Below, piece by piece: positions 15,555-22,830 of a stretch of DNA of 64,000 bases (position 1 is the first letter of the stretch; each line of letters starts with the position of its first letter). Made by a program: the position numbers and the translations under genes. The notes under the pieces were generated by a model, which was given only the letters and a program-made list of their open reading frames with translations, was not told the origin of the DNA and did no database searches. Source of the stretch: Candidatus Moraniibacteriota bacterium (GTDB lineage Bacteria > Patescibacteriota > Minisyncoccia > Moranbacterales > GCA-2747515). The stretch covers positions 68,105 to 132,104 of the forward strand of contig CALNYG010000003.1 of NCBI GenBank assembly GCA_942490825.1, read 5' to 3'.

Positions 15555-17741
15555 ATGTCAAATTTCATAATATCACAAGCATATTTCATTTTAATAACCA
15601 TCTTTATACTCTTCCTGCCAGGATACTTACTACTTTGCGGAGTGTTCAAACGAGAACACTTTTCCGCCATCGAAAAAATAATATTAGCAATTCCAGTCAG
15701 TTTCGCCCTAGCAACTTTATCAATGATCATTTCCGGAACACTCGGAATGCCCATCAATAAACCGAAAATCACAATTCTCTTTGGAACAATAAACATCATT
15801 TTATTAGCTTTCACTTTTTACCAAAAAAAGAAAGATTCAACCAAAACCGAAAATAAACTTTTCAATTTTTCAAAAAACCAAAGTCGATTAATTATAATTT
15901 TGATCGCTTTAACTATAATTATAAAAAGCGTTTATTTAGTTGATGCCATATTCCCCACTTCTACCGATTTAGCCCATCACATGTTTTGGGTAGAAAAAAT
16001 AAAAACCACCCAAGAACTCCCAGTCTATCAAGAAATCGAAATAGAATATGACGAAAGTGACAATCCCACCCTATCCGAACAGCCAGTACGTACTGCAGAC
16101 TTCATCGTTGGTGAACATTTAATTTTTGTTGCCATTTCCCTACTTAGCGGAAAAAATGTGGTTTCTGCCTTTCCATCCTTAATTCTTTTGATTATAAATT
16201 TAGCCACAATTTTAACCATCTTTATTTTAACGCAAAGATTATTTGAGAAATATAAATACGTAAGCTGGGTTTCAATTTTTGTCTTATTATTTTTAGGACC
16301 ACTTTACGCAATCAGCTCATCCCAAGCAAAATTCGTAAGTGGCGGAGCGATCGGAAACATTTTAGGCGACCTATTTATTCCAACAATCTTTTATTTTATT
16401 TATCGAGCATTTGCCAACAAAAGACCTGCGATGTTAATGATGACAGTTTTTCTCGGCGGAAGTTTAGCTTATATTCATCACTTAAGTGCTTTTATTTTTG
16501 GTTATGCCTTTGGATTTAGTGCAATAATTATTTATCTATTTCAAGTAGATTTCAAAAAAACTTTTAGCGACTTTTTCAAATTACGTTCAGTAATAATCAT
16601 GGTTATTTTGTTCTTATTACAAGTAACTCTAAATTTTATTTTGGAAAAATTTTCAATAAAAATTCCCATTTTAAAAATTGAAAGTTTAAAAATGTCCTCA
16701 ATGATAATTTTATCAATTTTAGGAAATATTTTTATTTTATCTCTTTTACAAAAAGAATTTAAGGCAGTTATAATTGATTGGTTTAAAAATACAATCAAAC
16801 ATTATGTTTTTGCTTTCGTTATTATATTTGCCTGTATGTTTTTCTTTTTCTATGTTCCTTCATATTTAAACAAAGACGCCATCAGTTCAGCCACAGGAAC
16901 ACCTGAAAAAGCAACTCGAATCGGAATTCCTGTAAATGAATTGATGTACAGCTCAGGCGAGGCTCGCTTTGCTTTAGGCGTTATTGGATTAATTATAATT
17001 ATTTTAATCGCACTATTAGCTAAACATCCAAAAACTCGAGAATATTTTGAGCGAATTTCTCCCGCAAATCAATATGGACGAGCAATTACAATTGGTTGGG
17101 CAACAGCTTTGATTGCAATGAGTTTAGCACCGCAATATTTGAAAGTTAATATTATTTCTAGTCGAATTGCTAATTATGTAATTTTTCCCATTACTATTTT
17201 AGCTGGATTTGCAATTGTTTGGATTTTTGATATTCTGCATCAACGGCGAACCGATAAAACTTATTTACCGAAAATTTTTGTTTCGGCAACTTTTACTTTG
17301 ATATTTTTATTTTTACTAACAAATGGAATGCGAGACAACTCCTCTGCCTTAAATGAATCTCCGGAAGTCAAAAGAGCCGTGCAAACTTATAAAGCTTCTG
17401 AACGTCTTAGTGGCATGATTAAAGGTGACGATCAAATGGTTAAAGATCATAATTATATTAAAGGTGATACTTTCATTAAAATATTTTTTGCAAAAGATCC
17501 AAATTTCCCGCTTTCTCGTGCTTTCTTCAGAAAATATGAAAATAATCCTTATCGTGAGACTTGCACTTTAGATATGATTTCCAAACCAAATAGTCCTGAA
17601 GCTCAGAGATGTTTTGATGGTTTAAATGTTCGTTTTGTCATGGTTCATACCGATCACGATGCCTCACAGTTTAATGGTTCTGATACTTTTAGCAAGATTT
17701 ATCAAAATGATGAGTTAAGTGTTTATTTAAGAAAAAATTAA
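15555..17741 (+). CDS. large polytopic membrane protein, possible GT-C-fold glycosyltransferase
   Basis: 728 aa with at least 14 TM segments and a C-terminal soluble domain. Architecture resembles 9328-11499. No diagnostic motif recognised. Confidence 0.45.
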   Translation: MSNFIISQAYFILITIFILFLPGYLLLCGVFKREHFSAIEKIILAIPVSFALATLSMIISGTLGMPINKPKITILFGTINIILLAFTFYQKKKDSTKTENKLFNFSKNQSRLIIILIALTIIIKSVYLVDAIFPTSTDLAHHMFWVEKIKTTQELPVYQEIEIEYDESDNPTLSEQPVRTADFIVGEHLIFVAISLLSGKNVVSAFPSLILLIINLATILTIFILTQRLFEKYKYVSWVSIFVLLFLGPLYAISSSQAKFVSGGAIGNILGDLFIPTIFYFIYRAFANKRPAMLMMTVFLGGSLAYIHHLSAFIFGYAFGFSAIIIYLFQVDFKKTFSDFFKLRSVIIMVILFLLQVTLNFILEKFSIKIPILKIESLKMSSMIILSILGNIFILSLLQKEFKAVIIDWFKNTIKHYVFAFVIIFACMFFFFYVPSYLNKDAISSATGTPEKATRIGIPVNELMYSSGEARFALGVIGLIIIILIALLAKHPKTREYFERISPANQYGRAITIGWATALIAMSLAPQYLKVNIISSRIANYVIFPITILAGFAIVWIFDILHQRRTDKTYLPKIFVSATFTLIFLFLLTNGMRDNSSALNESPEVKRAVQTYKASERLSGMIKGDDQMVKDHNYIKGDTFIKIFFAKDPNFPLSRAFFRKYENNPYRETCTLDMISKPNSPEAQRCFDGLNVRFVMVHTDHDASQFNGSDTFSKIYQNDELSVYLRKN

Positions 17742-17782
17742 AAACAATTAAAAAACAAAAAAGCAATCTCCAATCCCTCCAT

Positions 17783-18344
17783 GTCGTTCCGGAATTTTTT
17801 AAAGTTTTTGTTAGAAAATTTTAAAAAATATCCGGAATCTCGATTGGTTTAAGCTAAATCCAATAGAAAAACAATGGACAAACAATATTTTATTTATATT
17901 CTAGCAAGTCGTAAAGATGGTGTTTTATACACTGGTTTCACTAGCGATTTGCTAAAAAGAATTTGGGAACACAAAAATAAAGTTGTAAAAGGTTTTACTT
18001 ATAAATACAATGCTGATAAGTTAGTTTATTTTGAACAAACTGAAAATTCAATAAGTGCAATTGAAAGAGAAAAGAAATTAAAAAAATGGAAAAGACAGTG
18101 GAAAATTGATTTGATTGAAAAAGAAAATCCTGAATGGAAAGATTTATATGAAGATTTAACATCATAAAATATATTTAGAAAATTTTCAGTCTCTATGTTA
18201 TTCTGGAAAATGATTTTGTAGCAAGGCGAAAAAATTACTTTCCGGAATCTCGTTAAGTTTATATAAGTTTTATCGAGATTCCGGATAGATTAATTTGTAA
18301 TCACTCACTCTGTTCGTGAACAAATTATATCTTCCGGAATGACA
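17783..18344 (+). mobile_element. GIY-YIG cassette 1 (nested inverted repeats around the gene, plus an internal empty arm pair)
   Basis: Outer arms GTCGTTCCGGAAT (17783) and CTTCCGGAATGACA (18331-18344). Inner arm TATCCGGAATCT at 17829. A second arm set lies after the gene: TGTTATTCTGGAAAA at 18196, and TCCGGAATCTCG (18241-18252) pairing with CGAGATTCCGGA (18274-18285). Confidence 0.55.
17874..18167 (+). CDS. GIY-YIG nuclease family protein (UPF0213/YhbQ-like)
   Basis: YFIYILASRKDGVLYTGFTSDLLKRIWEHK (GIY...YTG motif) and a conserved tail, EREKKLKKWKRQWKIDLIE. Confidence 0.85.
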   Translation: MDKQYFIYILASRKDGVLYTGFTSDLLKRIWEHKNKVVKGFTYKYNADKLVYFEQTENSISAIEREKKLKKWKRQWKIDLIEKENPEWKDLYEDLTS

Positions 18345-18386
18345 TAATAAATGTAAAATTATAAAAAATTTAAAAAAGGAATCTAT

Positions 18387-18752
18387 ATGAAAAATCAAAA
18401 AAATATTATTATTGCAATTGTTGTATTAATGCTTTCTAGTATTATGTTTTTGGGAATTGTGGAATATCGACAACAAACCGGAGAAGACAGTCAAGGTTGG
18501 TGGAGTGTTTATTTTGTAGCTCCTTATGATGAAAAGTCTTTAGATTTTGTGATTGAAAATTATGATAAAAAAACTGAATTTAGTTATGAAGTCATTTTAA
18601 GTAATGAGGTTGTGAAATCTGAAGATGTCATTGTTGAAAATGGTGAATTTAAAAGTGTTGAATTAGATATTAAAAAAGATGAAATGAAATCTGCTGAAAT
18701 TAAAGTTAGTCTTTCTGGTGAGAAAAAAGGCAAAAGTATTTTTAAAAGATAA
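18387..18752 (+). CDS. N-terminally anchored small protein
   Basis: 121 aa with one TM helix (IIIAIVVLMLSSIMFLGIV). AAAGGAA ribosome-binding site upstream. Confidence 0.5.
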   Translation: MKNQKNIIIAIVVLMLSSIMFLGIVEYRQQTGEDSQGWWSVYFVAPYDEKSLDFVIENYDKKTEFSYEVILSNEVVKSEDVIVENGEFKSVELDIKKDEMKSAEIKVSLSGEKKGKSIFKR

Positions 18753-18761
18753 AAAATAAAA

Positions 18762-18789
18762 AGTCCAGTACCCGCAAAGGTTCTGGACT
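18762..18789. terminator. hairpin between convergent genes
   Basis: AGTCCAG...CTGGACT stem. A-run upstream and T-run on the minus strand. Could terminate both 18387-18752 and 18816-19076. Confidence 0.55.
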
Positions 18790-18815
18790 AGAGTGTTAGT
18801 TTACACATCTTTTTT

Positions 18816-19076
18816 TTAGATAGTTTCTTTTTTCTCCAAAACTATCATTGATTGTTCATCAGGAAATGGACAACTTCCATCTATATATCCGGAACCACAT
18901 TGTATTTTTTCACAAGAAGGTCTCCAGCTCCTATTCTCACGATTCTTTTTTTGACATTTTGCACAAGGTTTTTTACTTGTATCAATACTACTGTCTGAAT
19001 TAAACATAGAATGGTCTCCCGTAGATAGAATAATAAGAAGTTTCAAAAAATTCAATTTCAAGTCAATTTTATACAA
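18816..19076 (-). CDS. small Cys-rich protein, hypothetical
   Basis: 6 Cys in CAKCQKK...SCEKIQCGSGYIDGSCPFP. An alternative start at 19007 is preceded by GGAG. The hairpin at 18762-18789 lies downstream. Confidence 0.35.
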   Translation of the reverse strand: MYKIDLKLNFLKLLIILSTGDHSMFNSDSSIDTSKKPCAKCQKKNRENRSWRPSCEKIQCGSGYIDGSCPFPDEQSMIVLEKKETI

Positions 19077-19196
19077 CTAACTTGATAAAGTATTCTATCA
19101 GAAGAAGAAGCAGAGGTCAACTCCAATTTTACAAAATCCTTGAATTTAAGCCAAAAAGTGCTAAAATTAAATAACTTAAAAAGTTTTAAAATTATA

Positions 19197-20327
19197 ATGA
19201 AAAATACAAAAAAAATTCTCCTCGTCACTCGCCCGCTTTCCCCACCTTGGGACGAAGCCAGTAAAAACTTTGCTTTTGATTTAGTAAAAAATATCACTGA
19301 CAAAAACATCACAATTCTAACTAACACATTCAACGAAGAATTAAACAAAAACATTCATCAAGCCCAAATTCATCGAGAATCAAAAAACGATTTTAATTTC
19401 AAAGAAAAAGTTCGTTCCCTACTATTTCAAATCAAAAATCGCAAAAACTTTGATGTAATTCATTTTATGTTTACACCAACAAAGCTGAACAGTTTTGTAA
19501 TTAAAAATTTTATAAAAAACAAAAAAGTAAAAACCATTCAAACAGTTGCCACTTTGCGAGAAGATTTATATTCTGATGAAGAATTGAAAAATTTAATGTT
19601 TGGAGATGTGATTGTCACCTATTCAAAATATGCTAAACAAAAATTAGAATCATTTGGATTAAAAAACGTTCGACAAATTTATCCTGGATTTAATTTAAAT
19701 AAATTTAAGCCTGAAGAAAAAGATGTTGAATTAATGAAAAAATGGAATCTTAAACCTCAAGATACAATTGTTAGTTTTCCTGGTGAGTTCGTTCGGCTCG
19801 ATGCAACTGATTTTGTGATTGATACTTTTTTAGATCTTTGGAAAGATGAAAAAAATCACAACATTAAATATTTATGTGCTTGTCGAATCAAAAATGAAAA
19901 AGATGCTGAAAAGAAAAAAGAAGTTATTGAAAAATTAAAAAAAGCTGGTCATTTAGATAAAGTTGCTTTTAGTGATACTTTTGGTGATGTGAATAAACTT
20001 TATAATTTAGCAGATATTATTCTTTTTCCTGTTAATAATATGCGAGGAAAATTTGATGTTCCTTTGGCGATGATTGAACCTTATGCTTGTAAAAAACCTG
20101 TGATTGCGTCTGATTTGCCGATTTTGCAGGAATTTTCTAATGATAAAATTAATGTTATAATTGAAAGGAATAATAAAGAAGATTTGAAACGAGCAATTCT
20201 AGATTTGAAAAATGATGAAAATAAAAGAAAAGAGTTAGGCGAAAATGCTTTTGATTTTGCACATAAGACTTTTGATATTAAAAATATTGCTGAGCAGTAT
20301 GAAAATATTTATGAAGAGTTGTTTTAA
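19197..20327 (+). CDS. GT4-like glycosyltransferase
   Basis: First ATG at 19197; the ORF-track start at 19140 is TTG. GT-B layout with C-terminal FPVNNMRGKFDVPLAMIEPYACKKPVIASDLPILQEF. Confidence 0.7.
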   Translation: MKNTKKILLVTRPLSPPWDEASKNFAFDLVKNITDKNITILTNTFNEELNKNIHQAQIHRESKNDFNFKEKVRSLLFQIKNRKNFDVIHFMFTPTKLNSFVIKNFIKNKKVKTIQTVATLREDLYSDEELKNLMFGDVIVTYSKYAKQKLESFGLKNVRQIYPGFNLNKFKPEEKDVELMKKWNLKPQDTIVSFPGEFVRLDATDFVIDTFLDLWKDEKNHNIKYLCACRIKNEKDAEKKKEVIEKLKKAGHLDKVAFSDTFGDVNKLYNLADIILFPVNNMRGKFDVPLAMIEPYACKKPVIASDLPILQEFSNDKINVIIERNNKEDLKRAILDLKNDENKRKELGENAFDFAHKTFDIKNIAEQYENIYEELF

Positions 20328-20350
20328 AGTTCACTATAACTCTCCCTCAT

Positions 20351-20826
20351 GTCATTCCGGAATTTTTTATAATTTTTGAAAAAATTCTAAAAAATATCCG
20401 GAATCTTAAAATTTCAAATTTAAGCAAACTCTAACTACAACACAAATGAATAAAATCTATTGCGTATACATTTTAGCCAGCAAGAAAAATGGTGCATTAT
20501 ACATAGGCGTTACAAGTGATTTAAAAAATAGAGTTTGGCAACATAAAAATCACGCTGTTGATGGTCATACAAGTAAATATTTCATTCATAAATTAGTTTA
20601 TTATGAGCAAGGCGGTAATATTGTAAGTGCAATCGAAAGAGAAAAAGAATTAAAGAAATGGAAAAGACAATGGAAAATTGATTTAATTGAAAAAGAAAAT
20701 TCTGAATGGAAAGATTTGTATGAAAATTTATAAGTTAAATGATTCTCTTCAAATTTAAGATTCCGGATAGATTAATTTGTTTCCAATCGCTATCGCTCTT
20801 GGACAAATTATATCTTTCGGAATGAC
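20351..20826 (+). mobile_element. GIY-YIG cassette 2 (gene sits in the loop of nested inverted repeats)
   Basis: Outer arms GTCATTCCGGAAT (20351-20363) and TTTCGGAATGAC (20815-20826). The inner arms are a perfect 12-bp pair: TATCCGGAATCT (20395-20406) and AGATTCCGGATA (20758-20769). An extra stem AATTTGT/ACAAATT lies at the right side. Confidence 0.6.
20446..20733 (+). CDS. GIY-YIG nuclease family protein (second copy)
   Basis: YCVYILASKKNGALYIGVTSDLKNRVWQHK. The C-terminal third is nearly identical to 17874-18167 at both protein and DNA level. Confidence 0.85.
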   Translation: MNKIYCVYILASKKNGALYIGVTSDLKNRVWQHKNHAVDGHTSKYFIHKLVYYEQGGNIVSAIEREKELKKWKRQWKIDLIEKENSEWKDLYENL

Positions 20827-20910
20827 AACTGAAAGTAATCAAAAAAACCTAAAAATAAAAAGTTTTTTCAAAAATCTAAAGATAATCTTAAAATTATCTT
20901 GAAATTTTTA

Positions 20911-20946
20911 AAGCGAACGTCGGGCCAATACTGCAAACGTTCGCTT
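20911..20946. other. stable 10-bp GC-rich hairpin bounding a G+C-rich island
   Basis: AAGCGAACGT (20911-20920) pairs with ACGTTCGCTT (20937-20946) around a 16-nt loop. No U-tract on either strand. Confidence 0.6.
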
Positions 20947-20996
20947 ATATAATCCTAGCCGAGGCACCCACCTGGGTAACCCAATGGACAATCGCC

Positions 20997-21059
20997 TCAA
21001 TGAGGATTTCCGTCTTCATCGCAACCATTTAAAAAATATTTTTTAGGATTGATTGTCAT
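20997..21059 (-). CDS. 20-codon mini-ORF with a perfect Shine-Dalgarno sequence (speculative)
   Basis: AGGAGG (21066-21071) lies 6 nt before the ATG at 21059. The ORF encodes MTINPKKYFLNGCDEDGNPH and ends in TGA. It is followed in frame by 13 G+C-rich codons (GDCPLGYPGGCLG) and then TAG. Confidence 0.25.
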   Translation of the reverse strand: MTINPKKYFLNGCDEDGNPH

Positions 21060-21330
21060 GATGTGCCTCCTGCAATAATTTTTTATATTTTTGAAAGAGT
21101 TTCAGCCACCCTTTTCAAGTAAATTCTATCAATTTAATACTTATTTTATAAGCAAAAATCAATAAAATATTTTATCTTAAAAAGGGCTAGGATTGCTTCT
21201 GCTAGGGAAATAATTTAAGCTCTTTTTAAGAAACTAAATCATAGCTTAGCACAGAATAAAAGCATTGTCAATAGCGACAGACCAATCATTTTTAGTTATA
21301 ATAAAAACATAAAAACTTATTTAAAAAATC

Positions 21331-22830
21331 ATGAAAAATCATAAAAATTCAATCAAAAAACAATCCGAACATAAGTTCAAATTTGAAACTGACAAAATGA
21401 AAGTACCAGCCACTTTTTTCATGTCAGAAGAATTACTACCAAAAGAAGAAACTTTCGCACAAGTTGAAGACGTAGCTTCCAATCCCGAAGTTTCTGGATA
21501 CGCAGCCATGCCTGACATCTGTTCAAAGCCTGGACGAAAAAACGCCTCTGGTTCAGTTGTAGTTTCCAAAGATTACATTTTTCCCCAAGTCAACGATTCC
21601 GATCCAAACTGCGGAATGCGCTTAGTAAAAACTAATTTGACCGAAGACAATTTCACCGAGAGCGAAATTCAACTACTTTTTGAAGAACTGACTTCTGTTG
21701 TGCCAACTAAAACATTCGTCGGAACTAAAATTCCATTTAAAACTGTTGTTGATATTTGCCGTAGAGGAACAAGTGCTATTGTTGATTATTTAGACATTCG
21801 CACAAAAAATGAATTAGAAAACTCTCAGCAAAAAAACGGTAACTTTTTAGAGCGTGAATATTCCAAACAAGAAATTTTTGATGCTATTCCAAAACTTTAT
21901 CTTTTCTTTGCACAGTATCGCCTAGGAGTCTTAGGGGCAGCTGGAAATCATTATTTAGATTTAATGAAAGTTACCGATTTAGTTAATCCTGAAATGGCAA
22001 AAAAATTTGGTTTAAAAAAAGGACAATATTTATTCATGATTCACACTGGTTCTGGAATTCTTGGACAATATACAATGTACACCTACACCGCAAAAAAACG
22101 TGAGCACCTAAGTCAAACTGTAATGACAACCTTAGGAAGCTTAACTTTTCAATCTAGAAAAAAAGATGTTTACAAAGCAATCAAAAAAGCTATTAAAAAA
22201 CACATGCGAGATGATTCCTTGTTGAAATTTAAAGGCAATTCTGAAGAAGCTAAACTTTACATGACTGCTCGTGGTGCTGCGTCAAATTTTGGAACTGCTA
22301 ATCGTGCAACCATTACTCATAATATAAGCAAAACAATAAAAAGTATGTTCAATCGTGATCCTGAGATGGATTTAATTTATGACATGCCCCATATTTCAGT
22401 AACTCAAGAGAATCATTTTGATGAAGACGTTTGGGTACATCGTGGAAATGCTTCCCGTGCTTTTGGTCCAGATCAAATTAATCATCCCGTTTACGGCGAA
22501 ACTGGCGAACCACTCTTTATTCCGTCATCAATGAGTACTGACGCTTACATTGGAGTTGGCACTGATCAAAATGAGGCAGGATTTTTCTCCGCTCCGCATG
22601 GAACTGGGAAAGGAATAAATAAAAACGAAAAAGATATTGAGAGCAAAAAAGAACTTTTTGAAAAAATGAAAAACAAAGGTGTTAAACTTTACAACGCTCA
22701 ATCTTCAATTGTTATCAATCAGGATTCTGCACGTTACAAAGATGTTTCAAAAGTTATCACCGGAGTTGAAGAAAATGGAATTGCTCATATCGTTGCAAAA
22801 ATGAAACCTGTGGCGGTGATTATGTATTAA
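21331..22830 (+). CDS. rtcB: RtcB-family RNA ligase (divergent)
   Basis: 499 aa. RtcB-like metal and GMP-site motifs: DSDPNCGMR, AGNHYLDL, SAPHGTGKG, and a C-terminal KPVAVIMY. Confidence 0.75.
   Translation: MKNHKNSIKKQSEHKFKFETDKMKVPATFFMSEELLPKEETFAQVEDVASNPEVSGYAAMPDICSKPGRKNASGSVVVSKDYIFPQVNDSDPNCGMRLVKTNLTEDNFTESEIQLLFEELTSVVPTKTFVGTKIPFKTVVDICRRGTSAIVDYLDIRTKNELENSQQKNGNFLEREYSKQEIFDAIPKLYLFFAQYRLGVLGAAGNHYLDLMKVTDLVNPEMAKKFGLKKGQYLFMIHTGSGILGQYTMYTYTAKKREHLSQTVMTTLGSLTFQSRKKDVYKAIKKAIKKHMRDDSLLKFKGNSEEAKLYMTARGAASNFGTANRATITHNISKTIKSMFNRDPEMDLIYDMPHISVTQENHFDEDVWVHRGNASRAFGPDQINHPVYGETGEPLFIPSSMSTDAYIGVGTDQNEAGFFSAPHGTGKGINKNEKDIESKKELFEKMKNKGVKLYNAQSSIVINQDSARYKDVSKVITGVEENGIAHIVAKMKPVAVIMY

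What the first reader, a model, noticed from the sequence alone, without database searches (positions are those of the whole stretch)
17783..20826. GIY-YIG nuclease genes sit inside nested inverted-repeat cassettes: candidate structured mobile element
Seen in sequence: both GIY-YIG genes have the same surroundings.
- An outer arm GTC(A/G)TTCCGGAAT.
- About 30 nt further in, an inner arm TATCCGGAATCT.
- The gene.
- The inner arm's exact complement, AGATTCCGGATA.
- A small stem AATTTGT-loop-ACAAATT whose loop sequence differs between the two copies.
- The outer complement, (C/T)TTCCGGAATGAC / TTTCGGAATGAC.

In cassette 2 the gene lies precisely in the loop between the perfect 12-bp inner arms (20395-20406 / 20758-20769). 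Cassette 1 additionally carries a second left-arm set and an empty inner hairpin after the gene (18241-18252 / 18274-18285, 21-nt loop). The 3' thirds of the two genes are nearly identical.

The two cassettes bracket a GT4 gene and two small genes (18345-20350).

Inference: the nuclease gene is cargo of, or homes into, a hairpin-forming repeat family. I am not aware of a described transposition or homing mechanism for this arrangement.
Basis: partly seen in the sequence, partly recalled or inferred. Interest (0 to 1): 0.7.

Follow-up and report, generated by a model that had tools for sequence, protein, structure and literature searches.

The report
Ssn nuclease genes flanked by hairpin repeats
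Two small GIY-YIG nuclease genes in a Moranbacteria-like genome are each bracketed by a pair of inverted DNA hairpin repeats; this is the SRM-ssn-SRM arrangement of the Ssn single-strand nuclease family published in 2025, seen here in a long-hairpin form and as insertions into a conserved gene cluster.

Summary
Two 95-97 aa GIY-YIG genes (17874-18167 and 20446-20733) are each flanked by conserved arms that occur nowhere else in the 64 kb window.

The "outer" and "inner" arms on one side pair with each other. Each side is therefore one long hairpin (56-70 nt) of the form GTC-ATTCCGGAA...TATCCGGAAT-CT, and the downstream copy is inverted.

These conserved positions match the Neisseria NTS / Ssn-related motif (SRM). 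The proteins have the features of the Ssn family of site-specific ssDNA endonucleases (Chenal et al. 2025, PMC11893778), where the NTS-ssnA-NTS architecture is already described. They are not YhbQ-type (26% identity).

What is new here is modest:
- The hairpins are too long for the published SRM search pattern, which gives 0 hits in the window.
- The same long-stem variant is dispersed across many phyla, mostly without a nearby nuclease gene.
- In about 70 syntenic relatives both sites are empty, or hold gene-less convergent SRM doublets. Both cassettes are therefore insertions.

Whether Ssn itself mobilises them is untested. Verdict: a new member of a known kind, of moderate-to-low interest.

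The parts
17783..17840 (+). SRM-type hairpin L1, upstream of ssn1: GTCGTTCCGGAA...TATCCGGAATCT, 58 nt. It is preceded by a C-rich tract, CCCTCCAT.
   Evidence: Sequence; module scan; ssDNA fold -16.5 kcal/mol, z = -6.1.
17874..18167 (+). ssn1: a 97-aa single-domain GIY-YIG protein of the Ssn-like clade.
   Evidence: Pfam PF01541, E = 5.8e-15. Y8, Y19, R29, H33 and E66 are conserved. 69% identical to ssn2.
18197..18250 (+). Degenerate extra SRM L1': GTTATTCTGGAA...TTTCCGGAATCT, with the GTC mutated to GTT. Together with R1 it forms a gene-less convergent doublet.
   Evidence: Sequence; weak hairpin of -8.5 kcal/mol, z = -2.6; inverted repeat I13. Analogous empty doublets are seen in L052, L046, L050 and others.
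18276..18343 (-). SRM-type hairpin R1, downstream of ssn1, in inverted orientation, 68 nt.
   Evidence: Module scan; ssDNA fold -16.0 kcal/mol, z = -5.4. Its inner flank is 16/16 complementary to that of L1 (I21).
20351..20406 (+). SRM-type hairpin L2, upstream of ssn2, 56 nt. It is preceded by CTCCCTCAT.
   Evidence: Module scan; ssDNA fold -14.9 kcal/mol, z = -5.2. An orthologous module is present in L001 and L204 with a compensatory stem change.
20446..20733 (+). ssn2: a 95-aa single-domain GIY-YIG protein of the Ssn-like clade.
   Evidence: Pfam PF01541, E = 6.3e-14. 63-86% identical to 93-136 aa 'GIY-YIG nuclease family' proteins of many phyla. 26% identical to YhbQ. Positional orthologues in L001 (76%) and L204 (77%).
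20758..20826 (-). SRM-type hairpin R2, downstream of ssn2, in inverted orientation, 69 nt. It has one A-C mismatch near the stem base.
   Evidence: Module scan; ssDNA fold -14.0 kcal/mol, z = -4.5.

Best explanation
Each cassette is an SRM(+)-ssn-SRM(-) unit of the Ssn system.

**The parts**
- The gene encodes a small single-domain GIY-YIG endonuclease of the Ssn clade (CDD cd10448 in the literature).
- Each flank is one copy of its cognate oriented hairpin repeat, an 'Ssn-related motif' (SRM). The Neisseria NTS and dRS3 repeats are the prototype.
- One module reads GTC, then a palindrome that starts ATTCCGGAA and ends (T)ATCCGGAAT, then C(T). The stem here is extended by an AT-rich segment to 56-70 nt.
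- The upstream module is on the gene strand and the downstream one is inverted. This orientation produces the apparent 'nested' arms.

**How it most likely works (inferred from the characterised Neisseria, N. elongata, N. wadsworthii and Wolbachia enzymes)**
- The protein binds the hairpin only when the DNA is single-stranded. This could happen during uptake of transforming DNA, replication or repair.
- It then nicks a few nucleotides 5' of GTC. In this arrangement both cut sites fall just outside the cassette, on opposite strands.

**History (shown here)**
- Both cassettes are insertions into an otherwise compact, conserved DUF6541 - 121-aa protein - GT1 - RtcB cluster.
- Cassette 2 is old and vertically inherited. 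It is shared with two related genomes, and its hairpins are drifting or decaying there.
- Cassette 1 is specific to this genome among those sampled.

**Not shown**: the biochemical activity of these two proteins, and whether Ssn itself drives spread of the repeats and cassettes.
For: **Literature**
- PMC11893778 defines the Ssn family and the NTS consensus CGTCATTCCCGCGMAVGCGGGAATCYRG.
- It reports that 71% of homologue loci have an SRM and 42% have one on both sides.
- It shows that the three nucleotides 5' of the palindrome and the C after it are critical. It also notes the IS/REP-RAYT-like architecture.

**Motif**
- Three of the four intact window modules carry GTCATTCC...GGAATC, identical to the NTS at those positions. 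L1 reads GTCGTTCC.

**Protein**
- Single GIY-YIG domain of 95-97 aa.
- Y8, Y19 and E66 have the same spacing (11 and 47 residues) as the Y6, Y17 and E64 mutated in SsnA.
- A homologue 71% identical to ssn2 (P0014, locus L207) is flanked by GTCATTCCCGCGAAAGCGGGAATC. That is the NTS core, and it matches the published regex.
- All six homologue loci examined in Moranbacteria relatives show SRM(+) upstream and SRM(-) downstream.

**The hairpin is the unit**
- ssDNA folds of the four intact modules have z = -4.5 to -6.1.
- The unconstrained pair of positions is Watson-Crick in 109 of 127 modules, using G-C, C-G, T-A and A-T.

**Insertion**
- None of 80 syntenic metagenome loci has ssn at either site.
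- The median GT1>RtcB gap without an SRM is 62 bp, against 1003 bp in the window.
- Site A is 45 bp in L001, against 645 bp in the window.
Against: - The published SRM search pattern finds nothing in the window, L001 or L204, because it allows only short stems and loops. By that operational definition these modules are not SRMs.
- CDD cd10448 membership and homology to N. meningitidis SsnA (NMB0047) could not be tested directly. Neither was available to the tools.
- No biochemical data exist for any Patescibacteria homologue.
- In this 64 kb window the repeats are not expanded. There are five modules, all at the two ssn loci. A Neisseria-style role in genome-wide transformation control is therefore not evident here.
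Confidence: 0.85

Rival explanations
1. The SRM-ssn-SRM unit is an autonomous mobile element, and gene-less SRM doublets are its non-autonomous derivatives. This would be analogous to IS/MITE or RAYT/REPIN pairs. Ssn nicks at the outer edges would trigger copying of the cassette, for example by repair-templated 'homing' into empty doublets or next to existing SRMs. This extends the best explanation rather than excluding it.
For: - Both cassettes are insertions into a conserved cluster.
- Site A is empty in the closest relative, with no footprint.
- Gene-less convergent doublets with the same (+,-) orientation and complementary inner flanks sit in the same GT1>RtcB gap in L147 and L190.
- Such doublets also occur elsewhere, in L029, L046, L050, L052, L065, L071 and L097.
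- Modules cluster side by side, for example L071 and cassette 1 with its extra L1'.
- Near-identical protein and motif combinations occur in distant phyla.
- The authors of PMC11893778 raise the same hypothesis.
Against: - GIY-YIG enzymes hydrolyse DNA and form no covalent intermediate, so they cannot carry out strand transfer themselves (established knowledge of the superfamily).
- The two predicted cuts are on opposite strands, so a single strand is not excised as it is in IS200/IS605 (inference).
- No target-site duplication or sharp junction could be defined.
- ssn1 and ssn2 are only 69% identical, so there has been no recent intragenomic copying.
- Cassette 2 has stayed at one site in three diverged genomes while its hairpins drift or collapse.
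- No close relative was found in viral contigs.
Confidence: 0.3
2. The outer and inner arms pair across the gene to form a nested cruciform or stem, with the nuclease gene in the loop, as a novel structured mobile element.
For: Because the two modules are inverted copies, left and right arms are complementary: 16/16 and 18/19 for the inner arms.
Against: - The same module occurs with no ssn gene within 300 bp in 132 of 135 copies found in other genomes.
- Each side folds on its own.
- Covariation lies within a module.
- In L001 and L204 the left module's stem base changed by a compensatory pair (CCGTA/TACGG) while the right module kept CCGGA. This preserves within-module pairing and breaks across-gene pairing.
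Confidence: 0.04
3. The hairpins act at the RNA level, as terminators, attenuators or mRNA-stabilising stem-loops of the ssn transcripts. They would have no DNA-level role.
For: The modules lie 33-39 nt upstream of the start codons. They lie 24 nt (cassette 2) and 108 nt (cassette 1) downstream of the stop codons.
Against: - No terminator-like site was found in 17600-21400 (0 found, 1.1 expected). There is no T-run after the stems.
- No Rfam family matches.
- The same oriented module is mostly found away from any ssn gene.
- The non-palindromic GTC and C flanks are conserved across phyla, as required for protein recognition on ssDNA. SsnA did not bind RNA.
Confidence: 0.05
4. These are classical GIY-YIG homing endonuclease genes of the I-TevI kind, residing in an intron or as free-standing homing genes.
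For: GIY-YIG domain; weak sub-threshold hit of ssn2 to TIGR01453 group I intron endonuclease (21 bits, against a cutoff of 56).
Against: - The proteins are a single domain of 95-97 aa with no DNA-binding extension.
- The location is intergenic, with no intron RNA or host gene interrupted.
- The flanks are oriented hairpin repeats rather than exon sequence.
Confidence: 0.02

Closest known systems
Ssn / SsnA site-specific ssDNA endonucleases with NTS/SRM repeats (Chenal et al., Nat Commun 2025, PMC11893778)
   Same: - A single-domain GIY-YIG protein of about 95 aa.
- The gene is flanked 5' and 3' by oriented hairpin repeats sharing GTCATTCC...GGAATC.
- The same repeats are dispersed elsewhere in genomes, often clustered.
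- Relatives of the window's protein are flanked by the literal NTS core.
   Different: - The hairpins here are 56-70 nt with long AT-rich stems and a conserved bulge (AA opposite TAT). The published SRM pattern misses them.
- The host is a low-GC Patescibacteria (Moranbacteria-like) genome.
- There is no repeat expansion in the 64 kb seen.
- Activity is untested.
REP / REPIN-RAYT systems (REP-associated tyrosine transposases, IS200/IS605-related)
   Same: - A short nuclease gene is bracketed by inverted copies of a hairpin repeat.
- The repeat also exists as dispersed singlets and as convergent doublets with short spacers (REPIN-like).
- Recognition of the hairpin is expected on ssDNA.
   Different: - The enzyme is a GIY-YIG hydrolase, not an HUH/Y1 transposase.
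- No covalent DNA-protein chemistry is expected.
- The predicted cuts are on opposite strands.
Neisseria dRS3 / NIME (Correia-unrelated) repeat arrays
   Same: ATTCC...GGAAT palindromic core; intergenic clustering; the NTS is the oriented subset of dRS3.
   Different: Here there are only five copies in 64 kb, all adjacent to the nuclease genes, and the stems are much longer.
E. coli YhbQ (UPF0213 GIY-YIG)
   Same: A small stand-alone GIY-YIG protein with the same catalytic residues.
   Different: - Only 26% identity.
- It lacks the C-terminal KKWxRxWKIxLIExxNPxWxDLY segment.

Membership tests
Ssn family (cd10448 GIY-YIG ssDNA endonucleases) | Single-domain GIY-YIG protein of about 94 aa with no extra DNA-binding domain | tested here: met
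   95 and 97 aa. PF01541 covers residues 4-78 and is the only domain hit above the curated cutoff. ssn2 also hits the related T5orf172 model at its 20-bit cutoff.
Ssn family (cd10448 GIY-YIG ssDNA endonucleases) | Catalytic Tyr, Tyr and Glu residues (Y6, Y17 and E64 in N. meningitidis SsnA) present | tested here: met
   Y8, Y19 and E66 are invariant in an alignment of 12 sequences and have identical spacing (11 and 47). R29 and H33 are also invariant.
Ssn family (cd10448 GIY-YIG ssDNA endonucleases) | Assignment to CDD cd10448, or E < 1e-10 to N. meningitidis SsnA (NMV_0044 / NMB0047) | not testable with these tools
   - Neither CDD nor a Neisseria sequence was available.
- Proxies: 63-86% identity to 93-136 aa 'GIY-YIG nuclease family' proteins across phyla; a 71%-identical homologue flanked by the literal NTS core; only 26% identity to YhbQ.
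- No NCBIfam model reaches its cutoff.
Ssn family (cd10448 GIY-YIG ssDNA endonucleases) | Gene flanked by SRM repeats matching the published pattern HGTCWYN(0-2)YYVSBRHN(0-5)WNVSBRGN(0-2)RNCYNB | tested here: not met
   - 0 matches in the window, L001 or L204. The pattern caps the stem and loop length.
- It does match the flanks of relatives L205 and L207.
Ssn family (cd10448 GIY-YIG ssDNA endonucleases) | Functional determinants of the motif: GTC immediately 5' of a hairpin-forming palindrome, C immediately 3' of it, and a defined orientation | tested here: met
   - All four intact modules read GTC-[ATTCCG...CGGAAT]-C.
- They form ssDNA hairpins with z = -4.5 to -6.1.
- Covariation across 127 modules.
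Ssn family (cd10448 GIY-YIG ssDNA endonucleases) | Binds and cuts its motif only as ssDNA, a few nucleotides 5' of the motif | not testable with these tools
   This needs purified protein and labelled oligonucleotides.
REPIN-RAYT / IS200-IS605 | Encodes an HUH/Y1 transposase (RAYT or TnpA) | tested here: not met
   The only gene between the repeats is a GIY-YIG protein.
REPIN-RAYT / IS200-IS605 | Hairpin repeats flank the gene in inverted orientation and also occur as dispersed singlets and doublets | tested here: met
IS / MITE with terminal inverted repeats | Defined termini with a target-site duplication | tested here: inconclusive
   - The empty site A in L001 aligns with the right flank of cassette 1, and no duplication is recognisable.
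- The flanks are AT-rich and diverged.
GIY-YIG homing endonucleases (I-TevI type) | Nuclease domain linked to a DNA-binding domain, within or beside an intron | tested here: not met
   Single domain; TIGR01453 scores 21 bits against a cutoff of 56; no intron RNA family found.

The most novel reading that the evidence does not exclude
SRM(+)-ssn-SRM(-) cassettes are the autonomous form of a widespread, unrecognised class of bacterial mobile element, and convergent gene-less SRM doublets are its non-autonomous, REPIN/MITE-like form. In this reading the GIY-YIG ssDNA nickase promotes repair-templated copying ('homing') of the cassette into empty doublets or next to existing SRMs. The GT1>RtcB site would then be a natural example, found in three states: empty, doublet and ssn-occupied.
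Probability: 0.25. Interest if true: 0.7.

Novelty: new member of a known kind. Interest (0 to 1): 0.3.

Why it matters
The finding itself is explained by a published system, so it does not open a new category. It does add three useful points.

1. The published SRM search pattern misses a long-stem variant that occurs across at least seven major lineages. Ssn-motif censuses are therefore underestimates.
2. Ssn cassettes occur in reduced Patescibacteria genomes. DNA uptake is thought to be central to the lifestyle of these bacteria, which fits an ssDNA-restriction role. That link is an inference.
3. One orthologous intergenic site exists as empty, as a gene-less doublet and as ssn-occupied. This gives a concrete natural series for testing the open question left by the 2025 paper: is NTS-ssn-NTS a (domesticated) mobile element, and how does it move?

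Tried and rejected
- **Rfam.** No match at gathering threshold over the whole window. At E <= 10 over 17600-21200 there were only chance-level miRNA and snoRNA hits.
- **tRNA/tmRNA.** None found in the window.
- **Exact-sequence look-ups.** Look-ups of ssn2 and of P0001 found no record, so the window's own contig could not be fetched.
- **Solved structures by sequence.** The only hit was a spurious WD40 repeat protein.
- **NCBIfam.** Nothing reached its cutoff.
- **Supplementary files of PMC11893778.** None are held. No SsnA sequence or accession was available for a direct comparison.
- **Viral contigs.** No relative of ssn2 was found.
- **Terminator and promoter scans.** These gave nothing beyond chance.
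- **Gene conversion between the two ssn 3' ends.** Considered, but family-wide protein conservation plus codon bias explains most of the similarity.
- **Larger GT1>RtcB gaps in some relatives.** These hold unrelated small minus-strand ORFs, not ssn or SRMs.
- **A target-site duplication at site A.** Looked for, but none is definable.


Full report
**1. What is in the sequence**

The window is 28.9% G+C.

Two ORFs encode single-domain GIY-YIG proteins:
- 17874-18167 (97 aa) and 20446-20733 (95 aa), both on the + strand.
- Pfam PF01541 gives E = 5.8e-15 and 6.3e-14.
- The two proteins are 69% identical.

The arms are specific to this region:
- TCCGGAAT and its complement occur only between 17788 and 20767 in the whole 64 kb.
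- TTCCGGAAT with up to one mismatch is over-represented: 36 hits against 15.4 +/- 4.5 in shuffles.

The genes bracketed by the two cassettes are:
- a 121-aa protein without a Pfam hit;
- a small Cys-rich minus-strand ORF;
- a Glycos_transf_1 (GT4-type) glycosyltransferase.

A DUF6541 membrane protein lies upstream and RtcB lies downstream.

**2. The real unit is one hairpin per side**

On each side the 'outer' and 'inner' arms are complementary to each other. This is possible because TCCGGA is a palindrome (I11 and I25).

As ssDNA, each flank folds into one continuous long hairpin:

| Module | Coordinates | Strand | Energy (kcal/mol) | z |
|---|---|---|---|---|
| L1 | 17783-17840 | + | -16.5 | -6.1 |
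| R1 | 18276-18343 | - | -16.0 | -5.4 |
| L2 | 20351-20406 | + | -14.9 | -5.2 |
| R2 | 20758-20826 | - | -14.0 | -4.5 |

- Written 5'->3' on its own strand, each module reads GTC(A/G)TTCCG(G/A)AA - variable AT-rich stem and loop - TATCCGGAATCT.
- A fifth, degenerate module (L1', 18197-18250) has GTC mutated to GTT. It sits between ssn1 and R1, and together with R1 it forms a gene-less convergent pair.

**3. Comparative evidence for the single-hairpin unit**

I scanned one genome per GTDB species for GTCATTCCGNAAN{18,48}ATNCGGAATCT.
- My rough expectation, assuming uniform base composition, was about ten chance matches.
- The loci come from Bacteroidota, Ignavibacteria, several Patescibacteria lineages, Alpha- and Gammaproteobacteria, Rickettsiaceae, Elusimicrobia, Caldisericales and others.

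The matches behave as hairpins:
- 112 of 135 matches fold with at least 30% of their bases paired.
- The interior stems differ completely between lineages yet remain self-complementary.
- The two positions left free in the pattern are Watson-Crick in 109 of 127 distinct modules: G-C 66, C-G 22, T-A 17 and A-T 4. A further 7 are G-T.

The modules are mostly independent of the gene. Only 3 of 135 lie within 300 bp of an ssn homologue.

The closest relatives give a direct discriminating test:
- In L001 and L204, the module upstream of the orthologous gene reads GTCATTCCGTA...TACGGAATC. This is a compensatory double change inside that module.
- The downstream module keeps CCGGA.
- This preserves local pairing and breaks pairing across the gene.

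The 'nested cassette with the gene in the loop' reading is therefore not supported. The left-right complementarity follows simply from the two modules being inverted copies.

**4. Identification with a published system**

Chenal et al. 2025 (PMC11893778) described the Ssn family.
- The proteins are single-domain GIY-YIG proteins of about 94 aa (CDD cd10448).
- They bind an oriented hairpin repeat only as ssDNA and cut a few nucleotides 5' of it.
- They have no activity on dsDNA or RNA.
- The prototype repeat is the Neisseria NTS, CGTCATTCCCGCGMAVGCGGGAATCYRG, an oriented subset of dRS3. The general form is the Ssn-related motif (SRM).
- The three nucleotides 5' of the palindrome matter most for cutting. 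The C just after the palindrome matters most for binding.
- 71% of homologue loci carry an SRM and 42% carry one on both sides.
- The authors note that NTS-ssnA-NTS looks like an IS or a REP/RAYT unit.

The window fits this description on the motif:
- The modules share GTC-ATTCC...GGAAT-C with the NTS (L1 has GTCGTTCC).

It also fits on the protein:
- The proteins have invariant Y8, Y19, R29, H33 and E66.
- The Tyr-Tyr-Glu spacing is the same as Y6, Y17 and E64 of SsnA.
- Homologues 63-86% identical occur in many phyla.
- One homologue, 71% identical (P0014, locus L207), is flanked by GTCATTCCCGCGAAAGCGGGAATC. That is the NTS core, and it matches the published regex.
- All six homologue loci inspected in Moranbacteria relatives have SRM(+) 20-45 nt upstream of the start codon. 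All six also have SRM(-) about 6-50 nt downstream of the stop codon.
- E. coli YhbQ is only 26% identical and lacks the conserved C-terminal segment. 'YhbQ-type' is therefore inaccurate.

Two caveats apply:
- I could not run CDD or compare directly with a Neisseria SsnA sequence.
- The published SRM regex gives 0 hits in the window, L001 and L204, because it limits stem and loop length.

**5. History of the two cassettes**

A metagenome scan with the GT1 protein returned 80 loci at 42-62% identity.
- Where enough of the contig is present, these loci keep the order DUF6541 - 121-aa protein - GT1 - RtcB.
- None of them has an ssn gene.

Site B (GT1>RtcB), scored in 70 loci that have both genes (69 metagenome loci plus L001):
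- 67 have no SRM, with a median gap of 62 bp.
- L147 and L190 hold gene-less convergent SRM doublets in gaps of 120 and 143 bp. Their inner flanks are complementary (ATCTACAC / GTGTAGAT).
- L001 (GT1 84% identical) holds SRM-ssn-SRM.
- L204 and the window, which are outside this set, hold it as well.
- In L204 the right hairpin has collapsed to 32 nt. This indicates an old, vertically inherited insertion.

Site A (DUF6541>121-aa gene):
- It is empty in all 42 loci scored.
- In L001 the gap is 45 bp with no footprint, and it aligns with the right flank of cassette 1. The gap is 645 bp in the window.

Other observations:
- The gap between the 121-aa gene and GT1 carries SRM singlets or doublets in 6 of 47 relatives.
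- Long-stem empty doublets like L1'-R1 also occur elsewhere, for example at L052 263-420.

The refutation condition 'fixed at orthologous positions with no presence/absence polymorphism' is therefore not met. Occupied and empty states both exist.

The two window genes are too diverged for one to be a recent copy of the other: 69% in protein and 75% in nucleotides. The high 3' nucleotide identity (89-96%) mostly reflects the conserved C-terminus and codon bias.

**6. Mechanism**

Shown:
- the anatomy, ssDNA hairpin potential and covariation;
- the association with the gene;
- the insertion status of both cassettes.

Inferred from the characterised homologues:
- Each protein recognises its flanking hairpins on ssDNA and nicks 5' of GTC.
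- With SRM(+) upstream and SRM(-) downstream, both cuts lie just outside the cassette, on opposite strands.

Open:
- Does this serve ssDNA restriction of incoming DNA, as in Neisseria?
- Does it serve propagation of the repeats or cassette?
- Does it serve both?

GIY-YIG chemistry gives no covalent intermediate, and the cut geometry does not release a single strand. Any mobility would therefore have to go through host repair or recombination, for example templated conversion of empty doublets. I rate that at about 0.25-0.3.

RNA-level roles are unlikely:
- There are no terminator-like sites.
- There is no Rfam match.
- Most modules lie far from any ssn gene.

**7. Verdict**

It is wrong on three points:
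- the structure (two local hairpins, not nested arms);
- the protein subfamily (Ssn-like, not YhbQ-type);
- the claim that no such system has been described.

It is a new member of a known kind, a long-stem SRM variant with ssn cassettes in a Moranbacteria-like genome. Its main value is as comparative material for the unresolved question of Ssn/SRM mobility.

Noticed in passing
window 20827-21330 (GC-rich core 20915-21035): About 500 bp lie between the right hairpin of cassette 2 and the rtcB start. The syntenic relatives L001 and L204 lack this stretch (about 100 bp there). It contains a GC-rich stretch of about 120 nt in a 29% GC genome. That stretch folds as RNA on the + strand with z = -3.0. 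It has no Rfam hit, no tRNA and no similarity to any fetched locus beyond one 29-nt chance-level match in L191. It could be a small RNA or the remnant of another insertion.
   Followed up: partly
L147 1237-1321; L190 2080-2190; L175 3471-3555; L179 1379-1492 and 3903-3982; L149, L161, L162, L173, L180: Moranbacteria-like relatives carry short canonical SRMs as convergent (+,-) doublets with 3-65 nt spacers in intergenic gaps of the same conserved cluster. Some are the literal Neisseria NTS core (GTCATTCCCGCGAAAGCGGGAATC). No ssn gene lies within the 2-9 kb loci.
   Followed up: partly
window 17770-17782 and 20337-20350; L001 2893-2906 and 3385-3400; many loci: A C-rich tract (CCCTCC, CTCCC or CCCC) lies 2-6 nt 5' of GTC in many modules from different phyla. 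This is roughly where SsnA cuts in Neisseria. In L001 the tract is also repeated in inverted form outside the right module, after a partial duplication (GAATGACATGCTGAATGACAAACTGAGGGAGGG).
   Followed up: no
127 modules; window modules L1, L2, R1, R2: The long-stem variant has a conserved asymmetric feature. AA on the 5' arm lies opposite TAT on the 3' arm, giving one bulged base. T precedes AT(N)CGG in 116 of 127 modules. The canonical 24-nt NTS has no such bulge.
   Followed up: partly
L204 829-860: In a third genome with site B occupied, the right-hand hairpin has lost its 3' half (32 nt left). This shows decay of a vertically inherited cassette.
   Followed up: partly
window 15555-22830 and loci L123-L202: The gene order DUF6541 membrane protein - 121-aa protein without a Pfam hit - GT1-family glycosyltransferase - RtcB is conserved in about 70 metagenome contigs, with very short intergenic gaps. 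Some relatives have an extra small minus-strand ORF between GT1 and RtcB.
   Followed up: partly
window 18816-19076 (- strand): An 86-aa Cys-rich ORF has no Pfam hit. In L001 the corresponding region is called as two small minus-strand genes of 45 and 64 aa.
   Followed up: no
L023 5-62 and 279-336; L028 4432-4481; L067 2452-2506; L081 4421-4865; L107, L121, L122: Some pattern matches are not long hairpins. They are two short SRMs, or an SRM fragment plus an SRM, in direct tandem (GTCATTCCG...GTCATTCCG...CGGAATC). SRMs therefore also occur as head-to-tail arrays.
   Followed up: no
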